Positions 1-27,324 of a stretch of 28,675 nucleotides of DNA are shown one piece after another. The notes below the pieces were generated by a model. It did no database searches and was not told the origin of the DNA. It worked only from the letters and a program-made list of their open reading frames with translations. The number at the start of each line of letters is the position of its first letter. Position 1 is the stretch's first letter. Position numbers and translations under genes: made by a program. Source of the DNA: a virus. Lineage: Duplodnaviria > Caudoviricetes. The stretch is taken from the IMG/VR virus record IMGVR_UViG_3300036815_000223, positions 1-28,675 of that record, one strand, 5' to 3'.

Positions 1-342
1 GGAAGATATCAGGGTCCATTGACCGCTGGTGGCGGGGTTATTGTTAAGGTTGTTCGTGATGTTGCTAGCGTACAAGCCCCCCAGGTACGTGACCAGGATT
101 CCTTTCCCATAGGTGGTGGAGGATGACCACACCCCCTCATAGGGAACCACTCCCGACCCGACCACCGAATCAAGGATGGACATGTTGTTATTCATGTAGT
201 ACGCCCAGTTGTTATACCCCTGGGGAGGCTGGGCCAGGTTAAGGTTGGGGGTATAGGTGATGACCTGGGCCTGCGACACGGTGTTAGCAACCACCATAAG
301 CAACAATGAGAATAAAAATGCAAGAGACACGGCGCGCTTCAT
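1..342 (-). CDS. Tail-fibre/adhesin-like protein with N-terminal signal peptide (partial, runs off the left edge; not in the ORF track)
   Basis: ATG at 342 with AGGAG upstream; open to base 1. Translates as MKRAVSLAFLFSLLLMVVANTVSQA-QVITYTPNLNLAQPPQGYNNWAYYMNNNMSILDS...YEGVWSSSTTYGKGILVTYLGGLYAS...NPATSGQWTLI. Contains a fibre-anchor-like TPNLNL..P..G..W...N.N..ILD segment and a CBM5/12-like W...Y..G..V.Y.G..Y...W segment. Confidence 0.75.
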   Translation of the reverse strand, partial: MKRAVSLAFLFSLLLMVVANTVSQAQVITYTPNLNLAQPPQGYNNWAYYMNNNMSILDSVVGSGVVPYEGVWSSSTTYGKGILVTYLGGLYASNITNNLNNNPATSGQWTLISS

Positions 343-350
343 GTGATCTC

Positions 351-878
351 CTAGTTGTGGTGCGAGTGACAGTCCGCAGTGGTGGCCGCAGATGAAGCAG
401 CACCGCAGTTGAATGTGCACGTGAGTACGTACGGAAACGAGCTTGACGCCTTGGATGTTTGGCCAGACATAGACACAAACGTTCCGTTGGAAGTAGTAGG
501 CATACACTCTACCGTGTAGCTAGCGTCTGCGTACGCTACTGGCAAACTGATGCTGCCTGAGCATCCACTGTCTGTAGAGTTGGCCAGAGAGCACAAAGCG
601 GATGATGTCCAATCTTGATCTTGCACAGACGTTATGCACGGAACACTCACGAGTAGACCTGTGCCGTCTGTACCTGTACACGGGGCGCTGACAACACCGG
701 TATCCTTAAGCGTAGTGAACGCGCCTGTAGATGGGGTTGTAGCCCCCACGGGAGAGCTGTCGAGAAAGCTGTGGGTGATTACCGCCGAACGAATGGGCGT
801 AGCCGCAAGACCCGTGATGAGTCCAACGAGCACCGCGCCGAATAGGGCTAGCTTCATCTTTGTGCTGATGTTATTCAT
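351..878 (-). CDS. Secreted Ser/Thr/Cys-rich protein in the tail fibre region (175 aa)
   Basis: Start reassigned to ATG 878 (AAGGAG upstream, no overlap with the preceding gene). Signal-like MKLALFGAVLVGLITGLAA; 8 Cys; visibly lower GC than neighbours. Confidence 0.75.
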   Translation of the reverse strand: MNNISTKMKLALFGAVLVGLITGLAATPIRSAVITHSFLDSSPVGATTPSTGAFTTLKDTGVVSAPCTGTDGTGLLVSVPCITSVQDQDWTSSALCSLANSTDSGCSGSISLPVAYADASYTVECMPTTSNGTFVSMSGQTSKASSSFPYVLTCTFNCGAASSAATTADCHSHHN

Positions 879-888
879 ACGCGCTCCT

Positions 889-1494
889 TTAGTTAGAAAC
901 CATCGGGCCGGTGGCGCTGGCAATGACGGTGCCGAATGGTTGATGAACAACAAACTCCTGTCGGTTGACAACTGACGTGGTGGTGTCAATGTCACCCGGG
1001 GCGTTTACGTTTGTAGGCCAGGTGAATGTATGGCCACCGAAGGAGTCCTCAACGATGATGAAGACGATCTTCTGGCCCTTCCTCAGGTTGACAAGCGTGG
1101 AGCTTGTAACGTTGCCGGTCAGCTTGATTTGGAATACAACAAACACAGGGTTACCGGCGTTGCAGTCGAAGACCGGCGTGGCGCTGAAGGCTACGTCTAC
1201 CTCTACCGGCGCCCCACCCGATGACGCGAGCGCCGAGATCACCGCCTGGACCCTCGACACCTGGGTGGCTAGGTTACCGTCGTCCAGGAAGTCTAGGGAG
1301 AGGATGTTTTTGACCAGCTCCCCCAGGACCGCGGTTCCTACGGTTCCCTGTCGAAGGCACTTGTTAAGCCGGCGGCCGAGGGTAATCCCCGGCTGAAGTC
1401 CATCGATTTGGTACCCCGAGCCGGCGTAGGTTCCCTGGGTGTCCACATAAGCGCCCGGGTCAGTTGCTACCGGAAGAAAGTCATTCACCGCCAT
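889..1494 (-). CDS. Short tail fibre / fibre adaptor protein
   Basis: Follows the baseplate wedge genes. N-terminus MAVNDFLPVAT...LNKCLRQ...LDDG resembles the baseplate-anchoring domain of fibres in this phage type. C-terminal beta-rich domain (LTGNVT...GQ....I.ED..GG.T.TWP). Confidence 0.7.
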   Translation of the reverse strand: MAVNDFLPVATDPGAYVDTQGTYAGSGYQIDGLQPGITLGRRLNKCLRQGTVGTAVLGELVKNILSLDFLDDGNLATQVSRVQAVISALASSGGAPVEVDVAFSATPVFDCNAGNPVFVVFQIKLTGNVTSSTLVNLRKGQKIVFIIVEDSFGGHTFTWPTNVNAPGDIDTTTSVVNRQEFVVHQPFGTVIASATGPMVSN

Positions 1495-1506
1495 GTTAGC
1501 TCTCCG

Positions 1507-2094
1507 TTACACCACAAGATCTTCAACCATGTAACCCACGTCCAGACCCGAGATGGTTGAGCTCTCGACATCTAACCCGAATACCGGGGAACCCGTGGCC
1601 TGATAAAACCCGCACCCAACCCCCGCCGGCCGGAGCTCAATGTATCCGTTGATCAGCAGGGCTAGGGCCACCGTACCGAGATCGGTTGCCAGGATAATCA
1701 CCGCCATGGTCATATCCTGATAGTCCTGGATGAGGACCTCGAAGACATTCCCCTGGAACACCGAGGCCCAGATCGCGTACATCCCCGGCACCGTACCGTC
1801 CCAGTAGTTCGTGGCCACCACGGCCTTTAGGAGGGTCCGGTAGTCCGCATCTCCCAGCACGGTGATTCCCGAGGGTGGTAGGGGAGCCTTGAGGTTGCGG
1901 CTCGCCCCGATCCACTCCCCGAGGATGTCCAGCTGGTCTCCCACCGCCTGGTCGAGGTCGAACAGGAAGGGGAACCGACTGAGCTGAAAGATGCCATCGG
2001 CCATTGGCTTACACGTCAGGTTAATCATGGCCATGTACTTAGGCCGCTGATTATGCTGCGAGACGATCAGGCCGAGATAATCTGATACCGCCAT
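1507..2094 (-). CDS. Baseplate wedge protein, DUF2612-like (P2 gpI equivalent)
   Basis: Motifs FDLDQAVGDQLDILGEWIG.SR, L.DADYR.LLKA....NYWDGT, RPAGV and C-terminal FGLD...GLD.G; directly after baseplate J. Confidence 0.85.
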   Translation of the reverse strand: MAVSDYLGLIVSQHNQRPKYMAMINLTCKPMADGIFQLSRFPFLFDLDQAVGDQLDILGEWIGASRNLKAPLPPSGITVLGDADYRTLLKAVVATNYWDGTVPGMYAIWASVFQGNVFEVLIQDYQDMTMAVIILATDLGTVALALLINGYIELRPAGVGCGFYQATGSPVFGLDVESSTISGLDVGYMVEDLVV

Positions 2095-3275
2095 TAGACC
2101 ACCGTCAGAACAATGTTGGGGGTTGAGGTTATGGCCGCCGCGTTGAAGTCAATCGGCAGGTCCACGGTTCCGACCGGGGCGGGAGCGATCCCGATGGTCA
2201 GGGCGGTGATGTTATAGGTAAGCCCGTCGGGGCTGCCATACAGGTTTGCCGGCCCGAACATCTTCGTATAGTAGACATCCGTGCCGATGCCAAGGCTATT
2301 GATGAACGCCACGATCGCCGCGATGAGCTCATCCCCAATTGAGGACGTGTACCCCGTCAGGGGGTGAATCGTCAGGCTCACGTAGATCTGAACCTCGGCC
2401 AGCTCAAAGAAGGCGATGTTGATCGGTACCCCCGAGGGGTCCTCCACCTCAACCATCGTGGTTCCATAGGTTCCCGTACCTGGCGACTTCTTCGACTCGA
2501 TGGCCTGGGCAATTTCGGTGATGTCCCCACCCTCGACCACCGCGGCGATGCTATGGCTCGGTATCCCGTTGCCGTCGGTGGTGGCTCCCTGGTTCTCGTA
2601 TACCGTCGACCGTCCCACACCTGCCAGGTTAGCGATCACCGCGGCAATCGAGCTGAGCGGCGTCTGGGCAGGTAGCGCCGTGCTTTTCGCCTGTCGTTGA
2701 CGAAGGATGCCATCCTGCTCCACCGGGATGCCGGGAGTAGCGGCCGCGGAGTTGGTCACCGAGGCCCAACCCCGGGTCGGGGTATACCTGATCGTTACCG
2801 TGTTGATTGCCGCGGCGATGTTCCCCGGCTGCTGGGCCGTAGCCGTCACCGCGATCACCCCGGCGGGTGGGATCGTCACCAGAACCGGGAGGTTCCATAG
2901 GTTTCCATTCTGATCCTGAACCACGCAATTGTTGAGGGGTGTGCCGGCGGTGCCAAAGACGCTGACCACCACCGTGCTGTTAGTGGCCTGAATCCGCCGG
3001 AGGCCGTTGATGAGCACGATGGCGCTCAACCCCGCTCCCTGGGCGCCCAGGGGCCGCATGGAGTTGTAGGCGGCGATGTTCGCGTTGTTCTCGTCGTTGT
3101 AAGCCGTGGCTAGGACCACCAACCACTCGTAGTCCTGGCTGTCCGGGGTCAGCACCACGTCGCTACCGTAGATCGTGGTGAACGACTCGATCAGGCTGTT
3201 GAGGATAGCCTCAAAGTCTCCGGGTGAGATGGGGCCACTCGGCCCATAGGTTATCGCTAAGGTCGCAAGGGGCAC
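2094..3275 (-). CDS. Baseplate J/gp47 family protein
   Basis: 393 aa; A.G.GL......NGLRR, E.D..LR.RQ, YEN.....D.NGIP.HSI..VVEGG and K.PG.GTYG motifs; gene order. Confidence 0.9.
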   Translation of the reverse strand: MPLATLAITYGPSGPISPGDFEAILNSLIESFTTIYGSDVVLTPDSQDYEWLVVLATAYNDENNANIAAYNSMRPLGAQGAGLSAIVLINGLRRIQATNSTVVVSVFGTAGTPLNNCVVQDQNGNLWNLPVLVTIPPAGVIAVTATAQQPGNIAAAINTVTIRYTPTRGWASVTNSAAATPGIPVEQDGILRQRQAKSTALPAQTPLSSIAAVIANLAGVGRSTVYENQGATTDGNGIPSHSIAAVVEGGDITEIAQAIESKKSPGTGTYGTTMVEVEDPSGVPINIAFFELAEVQIYVSLTIHPLTGYTSSIGDELIAAIVAFINSLGIGTDVYYTKMFGPANLYGSPDGLTYNITALTIGIAPAPVGTVDLPIDFNAAAITSTPNIVLTVV

Positions 3276-3278
3276 CGT

Positions 3279-3683
3279 TTATCCTCCGTACTTCCGGCCA
3301 TAAGCGCTCTGGCCGTATCCGCCGATTGCGGAGATGTTTTGAAGGTTTACCGTTCCGTACACGGTGATCACCGTGGCCTGGTTGATGGTCAGGGTTCGGC
3401 TTCCGGGATCTAGGGTGCTGGAGTAATCGGTAAGGTCCACCACCCCCTGGACCCCCTTGATGGTTGACTTTATGATCTGGTCGTAGGCATCCTTATGGTT
3501 TCGTCCCACCACCTGGGTCAGCCATGGAACCCCTTTGGTGGTGTCCAGGAACCACTCCCCTAGAAGCAACCTCAGGGTGGTAAAGATAAGCTGAGCCACC
3601 GTCTGGGCGGAGTCTACCAGGTAATCCGATCCCCCGTGGCCGAAGGTGTAGTCGTTGTTCGGGTCGAGCTTTCTATATCTCAC
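3279..3683 (-). CDS. gp25/gpW-like baseplate wedge (sheath initiator) protein
   Basis: MRYRKLD...DY.FG, L.L..GEWFLD...G.PW, I..V.GV motifs; lies between spike and J. Confidence 0.8.
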   Translation of the reverse strand: MRYRKLDPNNDYTFGHGGSDYLVDSAQTVAQLIFTTLRLLLGEWFLDTTKGVPWLTQVVGRNHKDAYDQIIKSTIKGVQGVVDLTDYSSTLDPGSRTLTINQATVITVYGTVNLQNISAIGGYGQSAYGRKYGG

Positions 3684-4339
3684 GGTATGGGCACCCCCGT
3701 CTCACTACCACCCGTCTGCACCCCACCATGAACATGAGCATGGAGGGTGGTGGTAACGGCCGTTATTTCCTCGGTGGCCTCGATGGTTCCCGTGACCACC
3801 AGGTTACCCATGATGTTTACCCCTCCCGGCGCCTTAAGGTTGATCACCCCACCCGGGGCGAGCTCAAGGACGCAGGTTCCATCCTCGGTGCGGATTTGAA
3901 GGTTGGTGGTGCTTACACCTGACAATACCCTCGGCTGGCTTCGCGGACCCGGTAAGGCGAAGCCATCCGAAAGAAAGTCATCTGGCCGAAGTTCGGCAGG
4001 CAGCTGGACACCCCCATTGGCCCACCAGTTGTCGACACATCGGCTGGCAATCACCACCAACACCTCGTCCCCCTCGTTGAGCGGCCAGGTGATAGCGTAG
4101 CCGCCTCCCGAGGGGAACACCACCGGAACGTCCACCATCAGGGGGAGAGGACCCCAGGTGAACGTCCCATCCGCAGACCGCAAGCTAACCTTGATTACCG
4201 GCTGGCAGGTTACGGTCATCTGAGTTTCATCGTAGCTCTCCACCAGGCAGGGGACCGCCACCCACAGACCGGACTTCAGGCCATCCATGGCGACCCTAAC
4301 CGCCTCCTCGAGGTCTACCCCACGCTCTCGCTGGTCCAT
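3680..4339 (-). CDS. Baseplate central spike (Gp138/gpV-like)
   Basis: Start reassigned to ATG 4339 (TAATG overlap with the upstream stop). DVPVVFP.GGG....P...GDE OB-fold motif; C-terminal metal-binding H-x-H tip (HVHGGVQTG). Confidence 0.88.
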   Translation of the reverse strand: MDQRERGVDLEEAVRVAMDGLKSGLWVAVPCLVESYDETQMTVTCQPVIKVSLRSADGTFTWGPLPLMVDVPVVFPSGGGYAITWPLNEGDEVLVVIASRCVDNWWANGGVQLPAELRPDDFLSDGFALPGPRSQPRVLSGVSTTNLQIRTEDGTCVLELAPGGVINLKAPGGVNIMGNLVVTGTIEATEEITAVTTTLHAHVHGGVQTGGSETGVPIP

Positions 4340-5286
4340 TAGGCGGCACCTCCATAGGCGAGGACCGCCGACTCCTGCTGCGCGCTTGGGTCGATCGACA
4401 CGCAGGTGACCCGGGTATACCACTCGTTAGCTCGGGTGTCCCCATCATGCTCGGCCACTAGCACTCGGTAGATTCCATTCCCCGGTGGGATCGAGGCGAT
4501 GTAGCTCAGGGAGGTGTAGTTCGGGTATCCCTGCTCTAGGATCGTGGTCCGAACGATGTCCGCTGAATTTATCTGAACCCGTTGTCCCACGATGATGAGG
4601 GGATTCATCAGGACCCTCACCTCTACCCCCTGGTCGGTAGCCTCGGGCACCCCGATCATGCCGGTATCGCTGTTGATTACCACCACGTCCCCCGGCAGGT
4701 ACCCGGTCAGGGGAATGAATGTTAGCTGGCCATTCTGAATGCTCCATCGAGATCCCGAGCTCTTCGCCATGTCCCTCAGGTAGGACCGAGCCAGGCCGAA
4801 CAGGACCTTGCCCCGGGCCAGGATGCCACCGGTAGCCTGCAGGTACCCCACGGCGTTTGGGTCCTTAGGAGCGCCCAAGGCGGTGCAGATCGCGTTGAAC
4901 CGGTCGGCGTACGTGGTACCGGCCTTGAGGGTCATGTTGACCACCCCGAAGTTGTACAGTTCGTCGCCATCCGCGGCGTGGATCTCCAGGAAGTTGTCTA
5001 CGTTCTTTTCCCGACCATACTTGAACTGCTTGATGGTTCCCTGGAACACGGTAGCCAGCTGGCCCTGGTACCCCGCCTGGACGATGACCGTGGTAAACTC
5101 CCGAATAATCTCCGCGGTGGTTGAGGCCTTGAGGTTGTACACCCGGATGATGGCGGTGTTGGGGCTTTCCTGGTCGCTAGCCCTAACCGAAAAGGTAAAG
5201 TGAAGCTGGCTGAGGTCCTTAGACACCGTCTGGCTGGCTACCACCAGGCTAGCTGACCGGAGAAATTGGAAACCGGTATAGCTCAT
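4339..5286 (-). CDS. Baseplate hub protein (gpD/gp27-like)
   Basis: PN.A.I.VYNL, AGY......F.G.I, WSIQ.G, TGMIG.P motifs; 315 aa; upstream of the spike. Confidence 0.8.
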   Translation of the reverse strand: MSYTGFQFLRSASLVVASQTVSKDLSQLHFTFSVRASDQESPNTAIIRVYNLKASTTAEIIREFTTVIVQAGYQGQLATVFQGTIKQFKYGREKNVDNFLEIHAADGDELYNFGVVNMTLKAGTTYADRFNAICTALGAPKDPNAVGYLQATGGILARGKVLFGLARSYLRDMAKSSGSRWSIQNGQLTFIPLTGYLPGDVVVINSDTGMIGVPEATDQGVEVRVLMNPLIIVGQRVQINSADIVRTTILEQGYPNYTSLSYIASIPPGNGIYRVLVAEHDGDTRANEWYTRVTCVSIDPSAQQESAVLAYGGAA

Positions 5287-5600
5287 GAGGTGCCATCCGG
5301 CACGTAGTACAGGTGGCTCGTGCTCCCGAGGTTGGTAAAGCTTGGAAGGGCTAAGGTATCCGTGTCGGTCTGAACATATAGGGAACCCACGAACCCCAGG
5401 TAGCGGTAGGGTTTTAGGAGATCCCCGCCCGTGGTCATGTTTATCCCCGTGACCACGGGGTTATTGCCCTGATCGTTGATGTCCAGCAGCCAGATCTGAT
5501 CGATCTGTGACCAACGGACCAATAAGTTGTACACCGTGCCCGACAGGGAGATGGTCAGGGTCTGGGGCGTGGCTGCCAGGGGAACCTCAAAGGCAATCAT
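5283..5600 (-). CDS. Small baseplate protein (plug-like)
   Basis: 105 aa with W.LDI.D....P...GI....G.DLL..Y.YLG and LG....LYY; coupled to the hub gene. Confidence 0.7.
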   Translation of the reverse strand: MIAFEVPLAATPQTLTISLSGTVYNLLVRWSQIDQIWLLDINDQGNNPVVTGINMTTGGDLLKPYRYLGFVGSLYVQTDTDTLALPSFTNLGSTSHLYYVPDGTS

Positions 5601-6196
5601 TCGGCACCCCCATTAAAGTTCGTTCCCGGCTGAAGGTTAACCTGACCCTGGGGCACGGTGGGGGCGGTCTTCTGGGGAAGCGACTGCTGGCTCATGGCGC
5701 TGATCGTGGAGCTTGAGGTCAGGGCCATCAGGATCTCCACGAGCTCGATCGTGAGGTCCAGCACGTTCTCGGTTTCCTTATCGGTAACCACCCCCAGGCT
5801 CTTGATCGCCATGTTCTCGTAGGTCCGCTTGCCGGTCACCACCCGGAACAAGGTAGCGTTGGCCTTCAATTGAAGCATCTGGCCGTACAGGGTATTCAGG
5901 AAGCCGGGGTCCTGGGATGTGTTGTACTGGCTTCCGGGCGCCCAGGCGTAGGTCAGGTCCAGGTGGGCCGGCCGGTTGAAGATATGGTCGGAGATCACGC
6001 TACCCTGCTCTACCGGGTGCTCGGTGATCTCGCTTTCGTCGTGGTGCCGCTCGGTCAGCACCGCATCCGCGGTGATGATCCCTACCTGGCCCGAGGCCAC
6101 GAAGGCTCCGTTAACCACGCTTCCCTCGGGGTACGACATCCCCCGCCGCGTGAGGGCGGCCTGGAGGGCGACGATGGAGGTAGGGGTGGTGCTCAT
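5597..6196 (-). CDS. Tail tube initiator / Dit-like baseplate protein
   Basis: E.H......T.HPVE.G..ISDH....P and VVTG.R.Y.NM.I motifs; directly after the tape measure gene. Confidence 0.8.
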   Translation of the reverse strand: MSTTPTSIVALQAALTRRGMSYPEGSVVNGAFVASGQVGIITADAVLTERHHDESEITEHPVEQGSVISDHIFNRPAHLDLTYAWAPGSQYNTSQDPGFLNTLYGQMLQLKANATLFRVVTGKRTYENMAIKSLGVVTDKETENVLDLTIELVEILMALTSSSTISAMSQQSLPQKTAPTVPQGQVNLQPGTNFNGGAE

Positions 6197-8058
6197 GGGG
6201 TGGCCACCGCGCCGGCCAGGGCGCCGGGGGAGTCGATAACCCCCGAAAGGTTGCGGACCAGTGTCCGGTTAACTCCATCCTGTCGCTTCGCCGCCTCCCG
6301 TGCGGCCGCCTGGGGATCGCTAACGCCATGGATGTTGATCTCGGTCTTCTGGTCCAGGCTAACCGCCTTACGGAACAGGTCCGACTCCTCCTTACGCCTA
6401 GCGACCAGGCCCTTGTCTACCAGGTACGTACCGTTAGGCTGCCGAACCTTGTTGAACCGCTCGAACTGGGCTGCGGCGCCGGCGAAGTCCCCCGAGTTAA
6501 GCTTCTTCAGAAGGGTTGACTGGTTGAAGTTCCCTGCCCCGATATTGTACTCGAGGCTGGTCAGGGCGCTCAGCTGGTTGCTGTTCAGGGTCTGGTGGAC
6601 CTTGGTCAGGATGTTCCGGACATACTTCAGGACATCCTGGTGAAGCAGACGGTCGGCCCCCACCCGGTCGATGGAGGTCAGGTTCTCTCCCGCCTGGATG
6701 TGGTGGCCGTGGCCAATGGCCCAGCCGTTCACGTCCCAGTAGGGCTTGCCCCTGAAACCCTCGGACTTGGCGATAACCGCCTCCATGAAGGCCGAGGCCT
6801 GCAGGACGTTCGACTTAACCACCGCACCGGCCAGGTCCTTTGCCCCGAGGGACAGGGTCTTCAGCTTTTGGGTGTCGATGTCCAAGCCCAGGGGGTTACC
6901 GGTCAGGCCCGTAGCCAGGGCCTGCTTGAGGAAGCTTAAGGGGTGGGCCTTGGCCTCGGGCAGAACCGCCTTTACGTCGCTCTTGAGATCGCCTCCGACC
7001 TTCTTGGCCCCCTCCCACACGGCCTTAGCGGCGGCGCGCACCTTGTCGGGGTGGAGCTGCATCCATACCAGGGCGGACCCAATCGCGGCGACCACCAGGA
7101 CGGGCAGGGCTATGGCCCCTAACCCCGCGGCCCCGGCCGCCTCTGCGCCACCAGCGGCACCCTCCGCAGCCAAAGCACCTTCCCCCGCCGCAGCACCTCC
7201 ACCTAGGGGAACCTTCCCCCCTAAGCCAATGGTCTTAATGAGCCACCGACCCGCGGCTAGGGCTCGGTTGACCGAAAGGAGGGCCGCGGCCACGGCCAGG
7301 AGCCGGGTGGACCACCCATGGGTCTTGGCGTCCAAGGGTCCGAGCAGGCCGAGGAGCTTGTCGAACAGCCTTACGGCCCCATCCATCAGGGGAAGGAAGT
7401 CTCGGGCCAGGACCATCCCCAGGACCTCGAACCGTTCCTGGATCTTGCCGAGGTCGTTATGGAACTGCCGGCTTTGAGCGGCCAGCTTCTCGGGGTCCAG
7501 CCCGAAGGCCGAGGCCATCCGCTGCCGAGCGTCGATGCCCGCCTTTAGCTGGTCGAAGTTCTTGCTCAGCATGAAGAACGTCTGCTCGTCGATGCCGAAC
7601 ATCCCGGCGATCGCCGATCCCTGGTAGTAGGGCATGCGGCGGAGGACGTCCACCAGCTTCAGCAGGATCTGGAGCTTGTCCTGGTGGGGGTCGATCCCCA
7701 GGCCGGACAGCACCCCCTGGGTCCCGGGCTGCAGCCTCATGGCCGCGGCGAGGCCCTCCAGGGAGGAGGTGGCCTGCTCAGCGGTAAGGCCGATCTGCTT
7801 AGCCCCGAACTGGAAGGCCTGGAGGCCACCCACCGAGGTGCCGGTTCGCTGGCTGATGTAGTACAGGTTGGTGAGCTGGTCCGCGATGACAGTGACCGCG
7901 GCGGCAATCTCCAGGGAAGCGGCGGCTGCCTGAGCGCTCAGGTCGGTAAAGCGGGTGCCGACCTTCTTCCAGAAGCCGTCAAACCGCTTCCACTCCTGGT
8001 CATCGATCTTAAAACCAAGACCGATCAGGAACGAACGGAGGACATTTTTTTCGGCCAT
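6193..8058 (-). CDS. Tape measure protein with C-terminal GH24 (phage lysozyme-like) domain
   Basis: N-terminal FL..LGFKID, Ala/Gly-rich helical body, then EGFRGKPYWD...IGHG, LN.NQ..AL.S..YNIG.GNF..STLLKKLN.GD, GLV.RR..E..LF (about 6373-6780). Confidence 0.9.
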   Translation of the reverse strand: MAEKNVLRSFLIGLGFKIDDQEWKRFDGFWKKVGTRFTDLSAQAAAASLEIAAAVTVIADQLTNLYYISQRTGTSVGGLQAFQFGAKQIGLTAEQATSSLEGLAAAMRLQPGTQGVLSGLGIDPHQDKLQILLKLVDVLRRMPYYQGSAIAGMFGIDEQTFFMLSKNFDQLKAGIDARQRMASAFGLDPEKLAAQSRQFHNDLGKIQERFEVLGMVLARDFLPLMDGAVRLFDKLLGLLGPLDAKTHGWSTRLLAVAAALLSVNRALAAGRWLIKTIGLGGKVPLGGGAAAGEGALAAEGAAGGAEAAGAAGLGAIALPVLVVAAIGSALVWMQLHPDKVRAAAKAVWEGAKKVGGDLKSDVKAVLPEAKAHPLSFLKQALATGLTGNPLGLDIDTQKLKTLSLGAKDLAGAVVKSNVLQASAFMEAVIAKSEGFRGKPYWDVNGWAIGHGHHIQAGENLTSIDRVGADRLLHQDVLKYVRNILTKVHQTLNSNQLSALTSLEYNIGAGNFNQSTLLKKLNSGDFAGAAAQFERFNKVRQPNGTYLVDKGLVARRKEESDLFRKAVSLDQKTEINIHGVSDPQAAAREAAKRQDGVNRTLVRNLSGVIDSPGALAGAVATP

Positions 8059-8061
8059 CGC

Positions 8062-8732: not shown

Positions 8733-8739
8733 GATGTTG

Positions 8740-8779
8740 CCCTGATGGGGTCAGGGGTTATGCTCCGCCTTAGAGGCGG
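8740..8779. repeat. Two short hairpins downstream of the tube gene
   Basis: CCCTGA-tgggg-TCAGGG (8740-8756) and CCGCCT-tag-AGGCGG (8765-8779). Confidence 0.45.
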
Positions 8780-8788
8780 GTCAGAGGT

Positions 8789-9268: not shown

Positions 9269-9290
9269 GTGCTTTCTCCTTTAGATTTTT

Positions 9291-20727: not shown

Positions 20728-21053
20728 CCATTCCTCCCGATCCTCAGGTCGTCGATCTTCATGCGAAGCAGCTGACGGGAGGAGGTGCCGGTCCGGCTAT
20801 ACACGCCCCGGAGATAGTTCTTGACGGTAGCCTGGGTGGTCCCCATCCTGAAGGCTACCTCCCGAATCCGCAGGCCCTCGGCCAGGAGGGTCGCGGCCTG
20901 AAGCTCCTTGGGTCTCAGGTTAAACGAGACCAGGACCTCCATGACCGTGCGGATTCCCGCGGGCGGGCCGGGCACCACCTTGATTATTGGTGTAGGCGGG
21001 GGAGGAAGCTTGTGGTCCGGTATGTGGTACTCACAACGTGGGCAACAAATCAT
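20724..21053 (-). CDS. Stand-alone LuxR/GerE-type HTH protein with N-terminal CxxC
   Basis: LRPKELQAATLLAEGLRIREVAFRMGTTQATVKNYLRGVYSRTGTSSR; ATGA and GTGA overlaps with portal and MuF. Confidence 0.85.
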   Translation of the reverse strand: MICCPRCEYHIPDHKLPPPPTPIIKVVPGPPAGIRTVMEVLVSFNLRPKELQAATLLAEGLRIREVAFRMGTTQATVKNYLRGVYSRTGTSSRQLLRMKIDDLRIGRNG

Positions 21054-22963
21054 GCGGCGTCCTCCCCGACCAGCTTTCGCAGCTGGTCCATGCTGATTGG
21101 TTCAATGCTGCCAAACGTGTCTTGCCCACGGGAGTGACCGGCCAGGTAGCAGGCCAGAGCATCCCCCTTGTGCTTGAAGCCGAGGATCACCTTATCCTCG
21201 TCGTACGTGCCGGTGTCCGGGTGGTTCTGGTGGACCACCCAGGCCAGGTCGCTCGTGGCCTCGGGGCCTACGTAGCAATCCAGCTGGTCACCATCCGCGC
21301 CCATTGTCTTGCGGATGTAGCCGTAGTCGGCCGGCATGGTTACCGACCAGTCCTTGCCGTTGCGGACCGACCCCTTGGGGTTCTCGACCACGATCTGCAA
21401 ACCCTGCCGCCGTGCGAGCTCGGCCACGGTCGAGGCGGCGTCCCCGGTGTTCTGGCTGATGGCCGCGTCTACCTTGCTCGGACCCTTGAGCTGCAGGATG
21501 CCCCGGTCCAGGGCCGAGCCGCGGCCCAGCATCGCCAGGGCCTTGTCGGTGTTCGGAAGCGCGGCGGCGGCCCCCGGCGGGGCCACGTTGGCCTGCTCCG
21601 CCTCGTCGATCATCTCATCCGAGATGTTCGATCCCCGGCCGGTGACCTCGCTCAGCTGCTTGGCCTCCTTCATGGCGGTGGGCGGGTCGTAGACCCCGGC
21701 CTCCAGGTAGCCGGTGATGGTCACCATGTCACGGTTGGCCGTCTCGCTCTTGTCCTGCTCCGTCATCTGGTACAGGGGGTTGAACCCGAGCTTGAAGCCC
21801 TTCGGCAGGTCGATCCCCAGGCTGGAGGCGATCATCCGGTAGAACCGGGTCACCGGCACCTGGTAGTACCTCACCTGCTTTTGAAGGATGCCGTCGTAGT
21901 ACGTCTTCAGGTCCCCGTCCCCCGTGGAGTTAAGGCCGCCTGGTGACCGTCCTAGCAGGCGGGTGAGGGGAACCTGCACCGCACCAGCCAGCTGCTCGGC
22001 AAAGGCGGTCATGGCATCGGACATGCCGGTCATGGCACCCGACTGGTCAATCTGGAAGTCGTCCTTGGCGTCGATGAGGTTGATGCCCTCAAACCCCTGG
22101 AACCGCCGCATCATGTCCACGTACTTGCTTAGGCCGGCCATCTTCGCCCCACCGGCGCTGACGATCTCCCTCAGTCCGTCCACCTTGAGGGTGCGGAGGT
22201 AGATCTTATACATCAGCTGGGCGGCGCCCTGGCTGCTGGAGTCAAAGGCCACCAGGCGATCGTACATCCGTTCGTAGACCGAGGTCCCCCACATGTTCTC
22301 CATCACGCGCTGCCAGTATGGTAGGCGGTCACCAATCTGACGGAGCACCCGGGAGTAGTGAACCTTCTGGTTGCGGAGACCGGGGGCATCGGAGTTGACC
22401 CGGTAGAACTTGGGCTTGCCGAAGTTCGGTCCGAGGTCCTGCACCAGGTCCTCGATGGTGGGGTCTACCTGCCAGCGGTCCAGGGACAGGAACCCCTTGA
22501 GCTGACCGGTCGAGACCGTATCGGCTCGGAAGGGGGTGCTAAGGTCCTGGCCGTCTATCAAGGGAATCATGATCGAACCGCCGTACAGTCGAGCGCCCTG
22601 GGTAGCCTCGTTCAGGCCGTCCCACAGGCCGAGGGTCACGGCCGACTCCTGGATGGCCTCGATGGCCTCGGGGTCGAGATCCCCCTCGATCTTGACGCCC
22701 TCCCGGGTCATGTCATCGCACACCACGTCCACGGCCAGGCCACCCGCCCAGGACCCGCGGTGAATCCATTCCAGCAGGATGCGGTTGCGGGTGATGGGGT
22801 TGAACCCGTAGGTCGACCCCGAGGAGAGGTTGTCTGTGCCGATCCCGACCTGGGCCATGAAGTTCTGGAAGCTGTCGGTGGTGATCCCACGCTTCTTGGC
22901 CTGTCGGTTGTTGGCCGACTCCAGGCGGTTCGATAATCCCTTAACCGAAACTCGTGATGGCAT
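21050..22963 (-). CDS. Portal protein (DUF1073-like) fused to a C-terminal inorganic pyrophosphatase-like domain
   Basis: Start reassigned to ATG 22963 (AGGAG upstream). VD....DMTREG, ARLYGG, H.SR, GA..VPLTRL.G.SP.GLNSTG..D...YYD motifs; then ENPKGS.R...W...MP.DYGYI..T.GADGD.LD.Y.G...DEDKV.LGF. Confidence 0.92.
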   Translation of the reverse strand: MPSRVSVKGLSNRLESANNRQAKKRGITTDSFQNFMAQVGIGTDNLSSGSTYGFNPITRNRILLEWIHRGSWAGGLAVDVVCDDMTREGVKIEGDLDPEAIEAIQESAVTLGLWDGLNEATQGARLYGGSIMIPLIDGQDLSTPFRADTVSTGQLKGFLSLDRWQVDPTIEDLVQDLGPNFGKPKFYRVNSDAPGLRNQKVHYSRVLRQIGDRLPYWQRVMENMWGTSVYERMYDRLVAFDSSSQGAAQLMYKIYLRTLKVDGLREIVSAGGAKMAGLSKYVDMMRRFQGFEGINLIDAKDDFQIDQSGAMTGMSDAMTAFAEQLAGAVQVPLTRLLGRSPGGLNSTGDGDLKTYYDGILQKQVRYYQVPVTRFYRMIASSLGIDLPKGFKLGFNPLYQMTEQDKSETANRDMVTITGYLEAGVYDPPTAMKEAKQLSEVTGRGSNISDEMIDEAEQANVAPPGAAAALPNTDKALAMLGRGSALDRGILQLKGPSKVDAAISQNTGDAASTVAELARRQGLQIVVENPKGSVRNGKDWSVTMPADYGYIRKTMGADGDQLDCYVGPEATSDLAWVVHQNHPDTGTYDEDKVILGFKHKGDALACYLAGHSRGQDTFGSIEPISMDQLRKLVGEDAA

Positions 22964-22983
22964 TGACCTCTCTCCTTGCCTGT

Positions 22984-24285
22984 CTAATAGGTAACCCAAG
23001 CATATGCTGCGCCGTTGATGCCACGGCAAAGGATTCTAGCCTGCACGTTGCTTCCGCCGGTATACGCCACCATGAACGCAGGAGCAGTGGCATCCGAAAC
23101 GCCAGCCGTGGCACTCTTCGCCGCTATAGCTGAAACACATGTAGGCAATGCAACTGGTGTGCCCGGAGAAATTGGGTATGTAACCCCGGAGGTGAATATT
23201 CCGTTAACGATTCGGACCTGAGGATTGATGCCGACCAACAGGTCGCCTAAGAAGGCCCCAGTCCAAATGGTGGAATAGTCACCGTCCCAGCTTGTCATAG
23301 TGCCGTGCACAGCTTCGTCGCCGGAAGCGTCCCATTTAAAGTTGTGTTGTAAAGGGGAGAGACTAGAATGCAGCGTGGCGTTGATTAAGTCTACAGATTG
23401 CGCGCCGTTGGTTCCGAGACTGTCGGCAAATTCGAAACATACATCACCGCTGCCTGCTCCGTCCGACGCATCATACAGGCAAGTCAAATTTACATACGTA
23501 GACGCGGTGGCAGGCGAGTCGATCTCCACAGCGGAAATGTTTGTTGGCACAGCACCGTGAGTGCTGGCTGCATAATACTCGCTTTGCGAGTAAATGCCTA
23601 CGGTGTTCTGCAGTAAGAACCTTCCATCGGTTCCGCCGTAGTAACCGGTATATTGTGCTTGGTCAACGGCTTTCACAGCGTAGTACCCGGCCTGACCACC
23701 TGTGCTCCAGTAGGTCATCGTCAAGTTGGTACCGTCAACGTACACCGCTGTAGCGGCGCTGGTACCTCCCGTCAGATCGGCTTCCATGTTTTGCAAAGTT
23801 AAATATGTGCCGATGGGCGAGTAGCATCCTGTGCAGATGGCTTCGATCATGTGGCCGCTGCCGGTGTAGGCTATGAAAGAGTTGTTGAAGTTGATGGTCA
23901 AGTTCGAGTTAGCCGGAACCGTCAGCCCCGCGGTGCCTACATTGCACTGTTGCACGGTAGTTACGCTGGTAGACGGAGGCCACTCTACTACGCCAACACC
24001 GTTTCCAGCGGTGAGCACCGCGTTGATAGCAGACTGAATTGCTATGTGGTCGTCGGTATGACCATCGCACTTCGCGTTGTAGGGCGCATCCGTGATAAGC
24101 GCGGTCGGCACGGTCAACGAGGGCAGTGCAACGGGTCCGAATACGGGAAGGCCGCCCGAATACCTTTGCAGCTGAGGTACCGTGCCGACACCCATCGGGT
24201 TAAAGATGGCGGCTGATGTTGGCCCCTGGCACAAGGCCACCGCCGAAGTAATAAACACCGCTAAGGCAACGGTTAGCTTTTTCAT
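22984..24285 (-). CDS. Signal-peptide-bearing beta-helix (tailspike / pectate-lyase-superfamily-like) protein
   Basis: MKKLTVALAVFITSAVALC-Q; YNAKCDGHTDDHIAIQSAINA matches the YGA.GDG.TDD..AIQ.AI cap of beta-helix tailspikes; 8 Cys in the mature part; lower GC. Confidence 0.8.
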   Translation of the reverse strand: MKKLTVALAVFITSAVALCQGPTSAAIFNPMGVGTVPQLQRYSGGLPVFGPVALPSLTVPTALITDAPYNAKCDGHTDDHIAIQSAINAVLTAGNGVGVVEWPPSTSVTTVQQCNVGTAGLTVPANSNLTINFNNSFIAYTGSGHMIEAICTGCYSPIGTYLTLQNMEADLTGGTSAATAVYVDGTNLTMTYWSTGGQAGYYAVKAVDQAQYTGYYGGTDGRFLLQNTVGIYSQSEYYAASTHGAVPTNISAVEIDSPATASTYVNLTCLYDASDGAGSGDVCFEFADSLGTNGAQSVDLINATLHSSLSPLQHNFKWDASGDEAVHGTMTSWDGDYSTIWTGAFLGDLLVGINPQVRIVNGIFTSGVTYPISPGTPVALPTCVSAIAAKSATAGVSDATAPAFMVAYTGGSNVQARILCRGINGAAYAWVTY

Positions 24286-24516
24286 TTACTCTCCTCTAAC
24301 GCTTTCAGCTAAACGACCGGCCTTGAAGGCCGACTGCATCCTGGCAATTTGAACATAGGTGGTGTGATCATCCTCGGGGGTATTCGACCGATTCAACCGG
24401 GTAGCGAACCACTGGGCAAAATCTTGGTCATCAATCTCGGCGCCGAGCTCTCGAGCCTGGTCAATCACCTGCTGGGCCGTCCAGTCACGCCGAGGGTAAG
24501 TCAAAGCCTGTCCCAT
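24286..24516 (-). CDS. Hypothetical protein (76 aa)
   Basis: GGAGG upstream of ATG 24516; its stop abuts the next start. Confidence 0.65.
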   Translation of the reverse strand: MGQALTYPRRDWTAQQVIDQARELGAEIDDQDFAQWFATRLNRSNTPEDDHTTYVQIARMQSAFKAGRLAESVRGE

Positions 24517-25922
24517 ACGTCTAACCCTCCCTTGAACGCGAGCATCACGGCCTCCGCCTCATCCGGCGACGGCACGCCTCGCTTGACCATGTCTTCCTTG
24601 CTCTCAATCTTGACCTGCCCCCGGGCGGTATGCTCGTACCGGATCGTGGACAGCTGCTGGATCTGCTCGTCATCCAGGCCGCCGATGTCACCCTCACGGA
24701 CCCGGTCCGCCAATCCCCAGTACAGTTCGGCCTTCAGGTTGACATACTTTTCGGTGTCGCTCGAGGTCTCACCCACGTTGACCGCGGTGCACGGCCAACC
24801 AAGCTCGTTCAGGTGGCAGTACATGTACCAGCCAATGCCGGCCGTGTCCACGTTGAGGTTCGAGATTCGTTCCTTGCCGAACCCATTGAGCTCCGAGGCC
24901 ACCGCGCCGCGGGCATCCTGCTCGTGGAAGGCCCTCTTATGAACGATGTTCGGGCCGTCCCGCAGGACCAGGACCGTATCGGCCTCACCGGGGCCGGCCA
25001 CGTCCAGGCCTCCCACCAGGCCGGAGGTGCTGACGTGTTCCTTAACCACGCGGCCAGCCTCCAACCGGGCGATGCTGAACAGGCTGTCCTCGGACTGCTC
25101 CGGAAAGTTGCCCATCACACGGCTGACGTAGAACAGGCCGTGCTCCCCGTACTTCTTGTACTGGTCCAGGACCCACTTACGGCTGATGAGGTAGGAGACG
25201 GGGTTCCGGCCAAGCTCGTCGGGGTCGTCCCTTTCCATGCGGAGGAGATCCTCAATCGTAAGACCCATCAGGTTCGGGGTGTCGAAGGCTGAGATGGTAA
25301 AGGTGTTCCACATCGACCGGTGCCGGCCAAAGGTATCGGCGAAGGGACCGGACGGGATGGTGGGGTTCCCGATCTCCAGGATGTGGGCGTTTCCCGACGA
25401 TAGGGCGGCTTCCATCGACTCGTGGAGCTTCGGGTCCACGCCGGGCGCCTCATCGATGATGATCAGCACGTTCTCGGCATGGATGCCCTGGGACTTGACG
25501 CCCTCATCCTGCTTTTCCACCGAGGTGCTCATGCCGTACATGTACCGCTTCGGGCCGAGGCGGAGCTCGGTCTGTAAGGGCTTGGGGAAGGGGTAGCAGC
25601 TCTGACGGATCAGCTTATGAGCCTCACCCCATAGCAGCTTTTCCACCTGGGGCCAGGTAGGCGCCGTGGTTACCACCACCGCCTCCTTGAACCGCGTCAC
25701 GAAGGCCAGGCCGATTGCGGCGGCCACGTACGTCTTGCCGGACGCGTGGCAGGCCTTGACCGAGGTCCGCACGTTCTTGAACACCGAATCCACGATGTCC
25801 TGCTGCTTTTTCCATAGGTTGGCACGGAGGTAACCCTGGATGAACCGGTTGGGTGTTGCCTGCCAATACCGCATCTTGTGATCGATGCGGGCTTGCTCCG
25901 GATCAACCGATAAGGTCGCCAT
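24501..25922 (-). CDS. terL: Terminase large subunit
   Basis: Walker A-like ACHASGKT, Walker B IIIDEA, IGNP coupling motif, nuclease GLDVA..G...T and SPD.A.A. Start reassigned to ATG 25922. Confidence 0.93.
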   Translation of the reverse strand: MATLSVDPEQARIDHKMRYWQATPNRFIQGYLRANLWKKQQDIVDSVFKNVRTSVKACHASGKTYVAAAIGLAFVTRFKEAVVVTTAPTWPQVEKLLWGEAHKLIRQSCYPFPKPLQTELRLGPKRYMYGMSTSVEKQDEGVKSQGIHAENVLIIIDEAPGVDPKLHESMEAALSSGNAHILEIGNPTIPSGPFADTFGRHRSMWNTFTISAFDTPNLMGLTIEDLLRMERDDPDELGRNPVSYLISRKWVLDQYKKYGEHGLFYVSRVMGNFPEQSEDSLFSIARLEAGRVVKEHVSTSGLVGGLDVAGPGEADTVLVLRDGPNIVHKRAFHEQDARGAVASELNGFGKERISNLNVDTAGIGWYMYCHLNELGWPCTAVNVGETSSDTEKYVNLKAELYWGLADRVREGDIGGLDDEQIQQLSTIRYEHTARGQVKIESKEDMVKRGVPSPDEAEAVMLAFKGGLDVWDRL

Positions 25923-26346
25923 CGGGCACCCCCGGCAACGCCTGATCCAAGGTTTCGATGCTAAGGCCGCCAGATACCTGAACCTTCTGCAGGGGCTTGC
26001 CAAGGGATCGCTCCATCAGGAGCTGCGCGGCCCGGTCGTTGCCGTATGCGGCTTTCTGGATGAGGGCCTGAACGATCCGCCGTGACTCCAGGGCGTCGTT
26101 CGCCTCCAGGCAGTGGGTGATGACCTCATCAATGTTCCAGCGTTTCTGACCGACAGGCAAGTTCGGTATGTTCGGAAGACGGCCCTCTGCCTTAGCCGCC
26201 TGCTTTTCTTTGAAGTTATCGCGACGCTGCTGCCTGGCCTTCGCCATGTTCTGGCGACGCTTGGCAGTAACCTCAGGGGTCGGGCCTGGTTTTCCCAAGG
26301 TGTTGCTCTCCAGATTCTCTGATTTTCCGGCAGATACGAGAGTCAT
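25903..26346 (-). CDS. Probable terminase small subunit
   Basis: Directly upstream of and overlapping terL; basic N-terminus; L..KA..G...AA.LL.ER..GKP.Q motif. Confidence 0.6.
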   Translation of the reverse strand: MTLVSAGKSENLESNTLGKPGPTPEVTAKRRQNMAKARQQRRDNFKEKQAAKAEGRLPNIPNLPVGQKRWNIDEVITHCLEANDALESRRIVQALIQKAAYGNDRAAQLLMERSLGKPLQKVQVSGGLSIETLDQALPGVPDGDLIG

Positions 26347-26439: not shown

Positions 26440-26492
26440 CTCATTGTTAACTTGTGCACTATGACTACGACTTAGCACAAGTTAACAATGAG
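26440..26492. repeat. Perfect 18-bp inverted repeat with 17-nt spacer in the divergent intergenic region
   Basis: CTCATTGTTAACTTGTGC (26440-26457) and GCACAAGTTAACAATGAG (26475-26492). Confidence 0.95.
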
Positions 26493-26615
26493 GCCCCGCG
26501 CGCGGTATACGCGGACGCGCCCGCGCACGATCCATATATGCAAAAGGCGATTTTTACCTAAACTAACCCCAGACCGCTCCTTGGCCAGGTAGTCAATGTG
26601 ACTTAAAAATTGTAT

Positions 26616-26644
26616 TTTACAACCCGAGTTAGTTGGCTTACTAT
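26616..26644 (+). promoter_or_regulatory. Sigma70-like promoter
   Basis: TTTACA-N17-TACTAT with an AT-rich upstream tract; ATG 7 nt after the -10 box. Confidence 0.7.
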
Positions 26645-26651
26645 AGCTAGT

Positions 26652-26867
26652 ATGTGGACCCAGGAAATACCCACCGAACCGGGATTCTATTGGTTCCGCG
26701 ACACCGGTCCTTTTTGTCGGGGCGAGGTTACCATCGCTTGGTTTGATGACGGTGAGTGGGCCGTTCCCGGCAACGACGTCACCTGGAGCTCACACGAGTT
26801 AGCCATAACCACCTCCTGTTGGTTCTGGCTACCGCGGCTAGTTAAACCTCAACCCGAAAGGATATGA
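26652..26867 (+). CDS. Small Trp-rich phage protein (71 aa), probably leaderless
   Basis: MWTQEIPTEPGFYWFR start motif; no SD; ATG at the predicted transcription start. Confidence 0.7.
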   Translation: MWTQEIPTEPGFYWFRDTGPFCRGEVTIAWFDDGEWAVPGNDVTWSSHELAITTSCWFWLPRLVKPQPERI

Positions 26868-26871
26868 ACCC

Positions 26872-27324
26872 ATGAAAAGGATCTCAATCATTTTGCTGCT
26901 GCTGTTGGCAGCACTACCGACACGCGCTCAAACCACACCCGCGGCAAGCACGTTTCACACGTTCACCGCCAACTTCACCCCCGTAACCACCCTGCCTCCG
27001 TGTTCGGCGACGGTTACAAAATCCTGCATTTGGGGCATCACCAACACCATCACCTCTCCCCTCTCACCAACGGATCAAAGCATAATTCCCTCCTGCTCGG
27101 CAACGGTGACCACGGGCTGCCTCGGACCCACGGCCACTACCTCCGCGTACACGCCGGGTGGCCTGCTTTACTGCGGGACCTGGACGGCTTCGCTGGTGAC
27201 CAACTATCTCGATGGGAATGGAAGCGCGGCGGTCTCTTCGCCCGCCACGGTGCTGACCGCGGTGGCTGCCTGCCCTTTTGCCCCGCCCGCAAGTCCCGCA
27301 AAGGGCGCTGCTAGCTTCCAATAA
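26872..27324 (+). CDS. Secreted Cys-rich protein, possibly Fn3/Ig-like
   Basis: MKRISIILLLLLAALPTRA-Q signal; two P.CSATVT..C repeats; 6 Cys; AAGGA RBS. Confidence 0.8.
   Translation: MKRISIILLLLLAALPTRAQTTPAASTFHTFTANFTPVTTLPPCSATVTKSCIWGITNTITSPLSPTDQSIIPSCSATVTTGCLGPTATTSAYTPGGLLYCGTWTASLVTNYLDGNGSAAVSSPATVLTAVAACPFAPPASPAKGAASFQ

What the first reader, a model, noticed from the sequence alone, without database searches (positions are those of the whole stretch)
1..27324. Five signal-peptide proteins in and beside the virion operon: possible exported, disulfide-folded virion appendages
Seen: genes 1-342, 351-878, 18166-18648, 22984-24285 and 26872-27324 all begin with a basic n-region, a hydrophobic h-region and a small-residue cleavage site. 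Three have even numbers of Cys in the mature part (8, 8, 6). Two carry tail-fibre or tailspike hallmarks, and four are embedded in the structural gene array. Established: tailed virions assemble in the cytoplasm, and their fibres and spikes normally lack signal peptides. Inference: the phage may export receptor-binding or decoration proteins to the periplasm for oxidative folding, where they dock onto particles at or after lysis. Alternatively they act on the host envelope (receptor masking, capsule remodelling).
Basis: partly seen in the sequence, partly recalled or inferred. Interest (0 to 1): 0.85.

Follow-up and report, generated by a model that had tools for sequence, protein, structure and literature searches.

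The report
Phage fibre proteins carry export signals
A contractile-tailed soil phage, likely of Acidobacteria, puts secretion-type leader peptides on its fibre-, spike- and decoration-like proteins, so these parts are likely folded outside the cytoplasm and would join the particle only at lysis, a route I did not find described for tailed phages.

Summary
Observation confirmed. The window is half of an E217/Pam3-type myophage; a sister prophage sits in an Acidobacteria chromosome. All five genes have a basic/hydrophobic leader, four with Gln at the predicted new N-terminus; none of 27 other morphogenesis-strand genes does (own heuristic, no SignalP). Gene 1-342 is only the start of a long fibre. 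Its N-terminal anchor occurs with a leader (126 of 150 best hits) and without (21); leader-bearing forms have even cysteine counts (114 of 122, versus 3 of 12). Leaderless homologues of both tail genes sit in the same gene slots and match tail-fibre families. 18166-18648 has the YomS/XepA fold and no mature cysteine, so disulfides are not the whole reason for export. 22984-24285 is a beta-helix; 26872-27324 is unassigned. Cultured Tunturi 2 has leader-bearing fibres; Tunturi 3 and 4 do not. Cellulophaga phage phi10:1 gp091-094, annotated structural from MS/MS, carry such leaders. Best reading: exported appendages docked at lysis (0.62; strong for the two tail genes, weaker for the rest). Against: XepA is exported yet absent from particles; no docking shown. 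The scan noted this before on other DNA (31 findings).

The parts
1..342 (-). SP1: leader (aa 1-25) + 'TPN' tail-fibre anchor (aa 26-64) + weak CBM5/12-like stretch; 5' part of a long fibre, cut by the record end
   Evidence: CBM_5_12 E 0.0035, under cut-off; phrog_9851 tail fibre E 0.009
351..878 (-). SP2: leader + short fibre-shaft repeat + Cys-rich tip domain (8 Cys), likely gp53-C/H-lectin-like
   Evidence: (Gp53-like_C E 0.29 in 1 of 6 members); own model low confidence
889..1494 (-). Leaderless proximal tail fibre (baseplate-anchoring N-terminus), candidate cytoplasm-made docking platform
   Evidence: phrog_11303 tail fibre E 5e-12; 0 of 39 distinct homologues has a leader
1507..3275 (-). 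Baseplate wedge genes DUF2612 (1507-2094) and J-like (2094-3275)
3279..13683 (-). Contractile tail and neck genes (spike, hub, plug, Dit-like, tape measure with lysozyme, chaperone, tube, sheath, terminator, neck, adaptor); none has a leader
14772..18139 (-). Major capsid (14772-15833), cement (15903-16511), prohead protease (16571-18139)
18166..18648 (-). SP3: leader (aa 1-28) + Thr-rich YomS/XepA-type beta-sandwich, no mature Cys; candidate head-vertex decoration
   Evidence: pLDDT 84.5; YomS E 4.4e-5
18652..18945 (-). Small leaderless gene that travels with SP3 in relatives; possible cytoplasmic partner (inferred from synteny only)
   Evidence: 10 loci hit at 40-53% identity, all in the MuF-protease slot region
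19909..23029 (-). MuF head morphogenesis (19909-20727) and portal with InPase-like C-terminal domain (21050-23029)
22984..24285 (-). SP4: leader (aa 1-19) + right-handed beta-helix of tailspike/pectate-lyase type, 8 mature Cys; between terminase and portal
   Evidence: pectin lyase E 0.015; atlas: beta-helix, TM about 0.6; one homologue, also with leader and Gln
24501..26346 (-). Terminase large (24501-26003) and probable small subunit (25903-26346, by position)
26872..27324 (+). SP5: leader (aa 1-19) + 6-Cys Thr/Ser-rich domain of no assignable family, in a divergent unit

Best explanation
This myophage, likely of Acidobacteria, encodes its capsid, tail and baseplate without leaders but gives leader peptides to its distal fibre, fibre-tip, head-decoration-like and beta-helix proteins, which are likely exported by Sec, cut, folded in the periplasm and would dock on the finished particle when the inner membrane opens at lysis. 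Shown by sequence: leaders, their positions, Gln after the predicted cut, leaderless homologues in the same slots, even Cys counts tied to leaders. Predicted: folds of SP3 and SP4. Inferred: signal-peptidase cleavage, pyroglutamate formation (by analogy with the Bacteroidetes Q-rule; cyclase not checked in Acidobacteria), disulfide formation, docking of SP1 and SP2 at the baseplate or proximal fibre through N-termini freed by cleavage, SP3 as a pentamer on capsid vertices. My odds of being a virion part: SP1 0.8, SP2 0.75, SP3 0.5, SP4 0.45, SP5 0.3.
For: (1) Slot: behind the leaderless proximal fibre (0 of 39 with leader) relatives carry SP1- and SP2-like genes either with leader (e.g. L098, L102, L133, L157) or without (SP1-like L109, L115, L121, L130; SP2-like L094, L104). 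(2) Leaderless L115 (43% to SP1) matches the first 50 positions of tail-fibre phrog_7049 (E 1.4e-4) and five more fibre families; leader-bearing SP2-like L098 matches virion protein phrog_2557 (E 1e-12); leaderless L094 matches phrog_4209 tail fibre (E 5e-10). (3) Anchor profile built from 10 leaderless and 2 leader-bearing rows found 617 proteins; of the best 150, 126 have the anchor behind a leader, 21 at the start, 3 internal; small-residue-Gln junction in 124 of 126; even mature Cys 114 of 122 versus 3 of 12; Cys 1.6 versus 0.6 per 100 aa. Second set: 38 of 40 leader genes even versus 15 of 32 others and 11 of 32 proximal fibres. (4) SP3 family: 28 of 32 homologues pass the leader test although the leaders do not align; Gln is nearly invariant; also the N-terminal domain of 700-1800 aa proteins beside terminase or tail genes. 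(5) Cultured Tunturi 2 (podophage of Acidobacteria): 4 of 28 genes examined pass, including gp13 'tail fiber' with a weak anchor match (E 0.002). (6) Cellulophaga phage phi10:1 gp091-094, annotated 'structural protein, experimental MS/MS', all pass with Gln after the leader; gp087, 088, 090 do not. (7) Host: integrated sister prophage in G150 (J 50% identical, same tail order) flanked by TIGR03433 PadR and TIGR03434 ADOP genes above cut-off.
Against: No experiment on this phage; no docking shown. SP3 has no mature Cys, and XepA, second-best solved match, is reported exported but absent from mature PBSX particles (PMC6834076, passage). Tunturi 3 and 4 have no leader in 28 and 22 structural-region genes, so the route is not required for Acidobacteria phages. 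The G150 prophage and 4 other loci lack a leader gene in the SP3 slot (5 of 18; 10 of the 18 were fetched through SP3 itself). SP4 and SP5 have no anchor that I could recognise and no homologue in any fetched locus. Disulfides alone need no export: Pam3 fibres are disulfide-linked to the wedge (PMC9942802, passages; 'periplasm' does not occur there). A leaderless anchor protein has 10 Cys (P0094). Family members are related, so the parity counts are not independent events. The phi10:1 proteins are not homologous to these, and MS/MS of phage preparations can include co-purifying proteins.
Confidence: 0.62

Rival explanations
1. The proteins are exported but stay off the particle: fibre-derived soluble or envelope-bound factors that mask receptors, act as decoys, or loosen capsule and exopolysaccharide so that progeny can leave (XepA-like or moron-like). 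Most plausible for SP3, SP4 and SP5.
For: XepA precedent for the SP3 fold; SP4 is a beta-helix without a recognised anchor, in a head-gene slot; SP5 lies in a divergent unit with a promoter-like site at 26616-26644 (consensus match only); Porphyromonas prophage Q-rule genes were read as outer-membrane modifiers (PMC10367356, passage); lambda Lom and T5 Llp sit among tail genes (recalled).
Against: SP1 and SP2 keep the N-terminal segments that start leaderless fibres in the same slots; in many relatives every long fibre-like gene behind the short proximal fibre has a leader, leaving no other evident receptor-binding protein in the fetched DNA; phi10:1 leader proteins are annotated structural from MS/MS.
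Confidence: 0.27
2. The leader is an uncleaved or slowly released membrane anchor that parks fibres at the inner membrane facing the cytoplasm (or acts as a folding delay), so assembly remains cytoplasmic.
For: My heuristic cannot tell cleaved from uncleaved leaders (2 anchor-like ORFs pass); SAR endolysins are a precedent for delayed release (recalled; two's loci show such N-termini).
Against: Small residue plus Gln right after the h-region in 124 of 126 anchors; even-Cys bias only with leaders points to an oxidising compartment; the leader is an exact 22-24 aa addition in front of the leaderless start.
Confidence: 0.08
3. Artefact: wrong starts or chance hydrophobic N-termini.
For: A public gene call starts SP2 24 codons upstream; SignalP was not run.
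Against: 0.8% background; leaders conserved in character in 28 of 32 SP3 homologues, 126 of 150 anchor hits and the one SP4 homologue; a second assembly agrees base for base over 2-6000 (may be the same source).
Confidence: 0.03

Closest known systems
Cellulophaga phage phi10:1 gp091-gp094 (GenBank KC821618; record annotation read; paper not seen)
   Same: Tail-region genes with basic/hydrophobic leader and Gln at the predicted cut, annotated as structural proteins from MS/MS
   Different: Siphophage of Bacteroidota; no homology to SP1-3 profiles; 0-2 Cys; the record does not remark on the leaders
Tunturiibacter phage Tunturi 2 gp12, gp13, gp14, gp17 (PMC11924767; abstract, two results sections and passages read)
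   Same: Acidobacteria host; long Cys-rich leader-bearing fibre/pectin-lyase genes in the tail module; gp13 has a weak match to the SP1 anchor
   Different: Podophage; no virion proteomics and no mention of signal peptides in the main text; supplement not read
E217 / Pam3 / XM1-type minimal myophages (Pfam E217_GP41, Pam3_gp18, XM1_gp53, Phage_cement; PMC9942802 passages)
   Same: Same capsid, cement, sheath, baseplate gene set and order; Pam3 fibres use disulfides
   Different: Pam3 has one fibre type linked to Cys-rich wedge loops; here the wedge genes have 1-2 Cys and the Cys-rich proteins carry leaders
YomS (SPbeta) and XepA (PBSX), PDB 6i5o, 6i56 (PMC6834076 passages)
   Same: SP3 model matches (E 4.4e-5, TM 0.54/0.74); pentamers proposed to bind capsid vertices; XepA is exported
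   Different: 12-19% identity; Gram-positive lysis-cassette genes; XepA reported absent from particles; oligomer of SP3 untested
Phage tailspike depolymerases (P22 gp9 type; Pect-lyase_RHGA_epim beta-helix)
   Same: SP4 has the beta-helix and typical start motif
   Different: Leader in place of a particle-binding domain; gene between terminase and portal; activity and trimer untested
Filamentous phage pIII/pVIII (recalled; PMC4823517 seen in listing only)
   Same: Virion proteins routed through the secretion machinery, disulfides formed in the periplasm
   Different: Membrane-extruded non-lytic particles; not tailed phages

Membership tests
Sec/SPI substrate | basic n-region, uncharged hydrophobic h-region, small residues at -3/-1 | tested here: met
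   own heuristic, 5 of 5; background 41 of 5091; SignalP not available
Sec/SPI substrate | leader conserved in character, not sequence, across homologues | tested here: met
   SP1, SP2, SP3, SP4 (87, one homologue); SP5 has no homologue to test
Sec/SPI substrate | not a lipoprotein or Tat substrate (no lipobox Cys at +1, no twin-Arg motif) | tested here: met
   read from sequences; SP4 has Cys at -1 rather than +1 by the Gln rule, so a lipoprotein reading of SP4 is less likely but not formally excluded
Sec/SPI substrate | actual export and cleavage | not testable with these tools
   needs fusions and N-terminal MS
Phage tail fibre (SP1, SP2) | gene directly behind baseplate wedge and proximal fibre | tested here: met
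Phage tail fibre (SP1, SP2) | homology to annotated fibres | tested here: met
   indirect, through homologues L115, L098, L094; direct match of SP1 only E 0.009; no PDB sequence match
Phage tail fibre (SP1, SP2) | trimer docked on the tail | not tested
   complex prediction not available; SP2 model pLDDT 46, fold search without match at E 0.001
Phage tail fibre (canonical) | made and attached in the cytoplasm, no leader | tested here: not met
   leaders present; so a variant, not a canonical member
YomS/XepA beta-sandwich (SP3) | fold | tested here: met
YomS/XepA beta-sandwich (SP3) | pentamer | not tested
   no complex job; VIA search busy
Tailspike depolymerase (SP4) | right-handed beta-helix | tested here: met
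   atlas model, TM about 0.6, pLDDT 0.58
Tailspike depolymerase (SP4) | N-terminal particle-binding domain | tested here: inconclusive
   about 40 aa between leader and helix, unlike its one homologue there; no family match
E217/Pam3-type myophage | DUF3383 sheath, E217 hub, Pam3 plug, cement, DUF2612 wedge in order | tested here: met
Acidobacteria phage | host link | tested here: inconclusive
   indirect: sister prophage in G150 beside TIGR03433/TIGR03434 (1 of 401 genomes of that order); SP3 homologue in an Acidobacteriaceae MAG; no att site or spacer for this phage

The most novel reading that the evidence does not exclude
A large group of tailed phages finishes its particles outside the cytoplasm: head decorations, fibres and spikes are all secreted, oxidised and stockpiled in the periplasm, and the naked virion is armed only as it crosses the envelope at lysis; leaders are gained and lost on the same anchor domains across myo- and podophages.
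Probability: 0.4. Interest if true: 0.9.

Novelty: new variant of a known kind. Interest (0 to 1): 0.76.

Why it matters
Tailed-phage morphogenesis is taken to be cytoplasmic. A periplasmic branch would add a maturation step coupled to lysis, make host export and disulfide machinery (Sec, signal peptidase, Dsb) determinants of phage yield and host range, and explain why fibres of abundant soil phages are unannotated or discarded as host contamination. It is directly testable with cultured Tunturi 2 and phi10:1. The mature parts hold only 1-2% Lys+Arg versus 7.7% in core proteins, so trypsin proteomics would tend to miss them.

Tried and rejected
P0080 looked like a fusion of proximal fibre and anchor; its sequence holds an internal leader behind a frameshift-like stretch, so it is no evidence. 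Direct searches of SP3, SP4 and the G150 SP1 homologue against cultured phages: no match. SP5: no relative in viral contigs, fetched loci or 112 short leader ORFs; atlas gives unnamed small viral proteins at 0.90-0.91, a lead only. Anchor profile against PDB and PHROGs: nothing; scan of viral contigs with it: no confirmed hit, query too short; metagenome scan not run (alignment too variable). SP2 model too poor; weak rows to H-type lectin and pyocin fibre tip are not significant. Profile comparison of SP2 with a long leaderless proximal fibre gave only an 18-residue repeat, probability 18%. Tree of 41 proximal fibres: leader state needs 8 changes, but only 2 are forced by well-supported branches, the bootstrap had not settled, and L104 was mislabelled 'leader' because of a membrane protein; weak support for repeated gain or loss. 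Sequencing runs: no RNA holder listed. The Q-rule paper has no mention of Acidobacteria in its main text. HFTV1 paper cites XepA/YomS only in its reference list in the passages seen. Tunturi 1 and the bulk of Tunturi 5 were not examined. Literature searches for a tailed-phage export route (listings only) found none; subscription journals and supplements are not covered.
Full report
What the window is. The window is a whole virus record of 28,675 bases, linear, estimated 48% complete. The minus strand holds a complete morphogenesis operon of an E217/Pam3/XM1-type myophage: terminase, portal, MuF, protease, cement, major capsid, neck, sheath, tube, tape measure, hub, spike, wedge and proximal fibre. 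One of 401 genomes of the order of an Acidobacteriaceae MAG holds a close relative (G150, baseplate J 50% identical). It is an integrated prophage with an integrase, flanked by acidobacterial PadR and ADOP permease genes above their cut-offs. An Acidobacteria host for the window's phage is therefore likely but indirect.

The observation. All five ORFs are real, with good starts and n/h/c leaders. With my heuristic (no SignalP here), 5 of 5 pass, 0 of 27 other minus-strand genes pass, 41 of 5091 internal windows pass, and 2 of 4 other plus-strand ORFs pass although they look like membrane anchors. Mature Cys counts are 0, 8, 0, 8, 6. Four have Gln right after the predicted cut, as in the Bacteroidetes Q-rule (PMC5837995 and PMC10653852, abstract starts in listing; Acidobacteria not mentioned in the former).

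SP1 (1-342). The record ends inside the gene; the G150 homologue in the same slot has 1256 aa, a leader and 24 mature Cys. Its first mature 40 residues form a motif that in a sister clade starts a small leaderless protein in the same slot. A profile of 10 leaderless and 2 leader-bearing copies found 617 proteins; among the best 150 the motif lies behind a leader in 126, at the start in 21 and internally in 3. Of the 126, 114 pass the heuristic (0 of 21 leaderless), 124 have a small-residue-Gln junction, and 114 of the 122 with any Cys have an even number, against 3 of 12 leaderless; Cys density is 1.6 versus 0.6 per 100 aa. Ten of the 21 leaderless are under 200 aa, one may be a clipped leader, and members are related, so the formal p-value overstates the case. 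A second set, genes of 150 aa or more behind the proximal fibre in 52 of the 73 loci, gave 38 of 40 even with leader, 15 of 32 without (this group includes lysis genes, spurious ORFs and some missed leaders), and 11 of 32 for the proximal fibres, none of 39 of which has a leader. The closest leaderless homologues, L115 (43%) and L109 (37%), sit directly behind the proximal fibre; L115 matches the N-terminus of tail-fibre phrog_7049 and five other fibre families. P0094 joins the leaderless motif to a tailspike-type beta-helix. A related strain differs from the mature part at 11 sites, all synonymous, and diverges at the leader boundary.

SP2 (351-878). Homologues in the same slot occur with leader (L097, L098, L100-L103, L105, L157) and without (L094, L104); the leader is a clean 22-24 residue addition before the shared start. 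L098 matches virion protein phrog_2557 at 1e-12 and L094 tail-fibre phrog_4209 at 5e-10. Its own model is poor (pLDDT 46) and the fold search empty.

SP3 (18166-18648). 32 homologues; 28 pass the leader test, the leaders do not align, the Gln is nearly invariant. In 13 of 18 loci with both MuF and protease the gap holds a leader gene, 10 of them SP3-like; 10 loci were fetched through SP3 and three are near-copies; G150 and four others have none. In other phages the domain starts proteins of 700-1800 aa beside terminase or among tail genes, and weak leaderless relatives follow long tail genes. The model (pLDDT 84.5) matches YomS (E 4.4e-5) and XepA, and 50 predicted viral proteins. YomS and XepA are pentamers proposed to bind capsid vertices, but XepA is reported exported and absent from particles (PMC6834076, passages). 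SP3 has no mature Cys, so its export needs another reason (inferred: timing, N-terminal capping, or glycosylation of a 30% Ser/Thr protein).

SP4 (22984-24285) is a beta-helix of tailspike/pectate-lyase type with one homologue, 51% identical, also with leader and Gln; no particle anchor was recognised. SP5 (26872-27324) has no homologue found and lies in a divergent unit with a promoter-like site upstream and a strong hairpin at 27332-27361.

Cultured phages. Tunturi 2, a plaque-forming podophage of Acidobacteria, has leaders on gp12, 13, 14 and 17 (4 of 28 genes examined), gp13 with a weak match to the SP1 anchor; Tunturi 3 and 4 have none in 28 and 22 genes. The paper does not mention signal peptides or virion MS in its main text (PMC11924767; supplement unread). 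Cellulophaga phage phi10:1 gp091-094 are annotated structural from MS/MS and all carry leader plus Gln: the nearest thing to experimental support, though for unrelated proteins and from a record note. Porphyromonas prophage Q-rule genes of unknown function were read as envelope modifiers (PMC10367356, passage). Pam3 shows fibre disulfides without any stated export (PMC9942802, passages).

Mechanism. Late genes are translated together; core parts assemble in the cytoplasm; leader-bearing parts likely go through Sec, are cut, and fold with disulfides in the periplasm; cleavage frees an N-terminus equal to that of the leaderless fibres; the parts would dock when holin action lets particles into the periplasm. 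The main rival is export without incorporation, strongest for SP3-SP5.

Novelty. Fibres, spikes and decorations are known; the route is what differs. Seven literature searches (listings only, open-access library) showed no description of it for tailed phages. The scan has noted the same trait in 31 findings on other genomes; none is a look-alike of this DNA. This window adds a myophage case with head and tail slots, natural pairs with and without leader in the same slots, an integrated host-linked sister prophage, and a Cys-free exported YomS-fold protein. Verdict: new variant of a known kind, interest 0.76.

Noticed in passing
window 21050-23029 (-): Portal carries a C-terminal InPase-like domain (PF18823, E 4e-36, aa 540-653); similar long portals in L084, L090, L091.
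   Followed up: no
window 11893-12411 (-): Low-GC (44%) GIY-YIG/NUMOD3 homing endonuclease inserted between neck and head-completion genes.
   Followed up: no
window 19542-20036 and 20724-21053 (-): Two LuxR/GerE-type HTH genes inside the head module; a similar gene follows the portal in L031.
   Followed up: no
window 8062-8732 (-): Tail chaperone followed by an overlapping DUF6889 ORF, suggestive of the usual programmed frameshift.
   Followed up: no
window 6193-8058 (-): Tape measure protein ends in a phage lysozyme domain (E 2.5e-29).
   Followed up: no
window 18652-18945 (-): Small leaderless gene conserved at 40-53% next to SP3 homologues in 10 loci; candidate cytoplasmic partner of SP3.
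   Followed up: partly
window 27388-27705 and 27998-28291 (+): Single-pass membrane proteins; the first has weak Rz-like spanin matches (E 5e-4).
   Followed up: no
window 1-2 and run X1 record 1: Two assemblies end at the same place inside SP1, hinting at a variable or repetitive fibre region.
   Followed up: no
L051:6050-16464, L052, L059: Podophages whose whole tailspike cluster bears leaders (proteins of 260-1630 aa, up to 37 Cys), one gene with an SP3-like domain; the first starts with what looks like a P22-type head-binding motif (recalled, no family match).
   Followed up: partly
L032, L036, L037, L043, L046: Another phage group has a Cys-rich leader gene between portal and MuF and a long SP3-domain protein beside terminase, one with a GDSL esterase domain (L032:9947-12919).
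   Followed up: partly
L002:4767-8852: DUF2612 wedge protein fused to an arabinofuranosidase-like domain (1361 aa), in a relative with no leader genes in the fetched DNA.
   Followed up: no
L074:3890-7955 (G150:C30): Four-gene cluster next to an integrase that looks like a nucleotidyltransferase/ATPase defence system (CBASS-like, by eye).
   Followed up: no
L076:7644-11683 (G150 prophage): Four short leader-bearing genes between head-tail adaptor genes.
   Followed up: no
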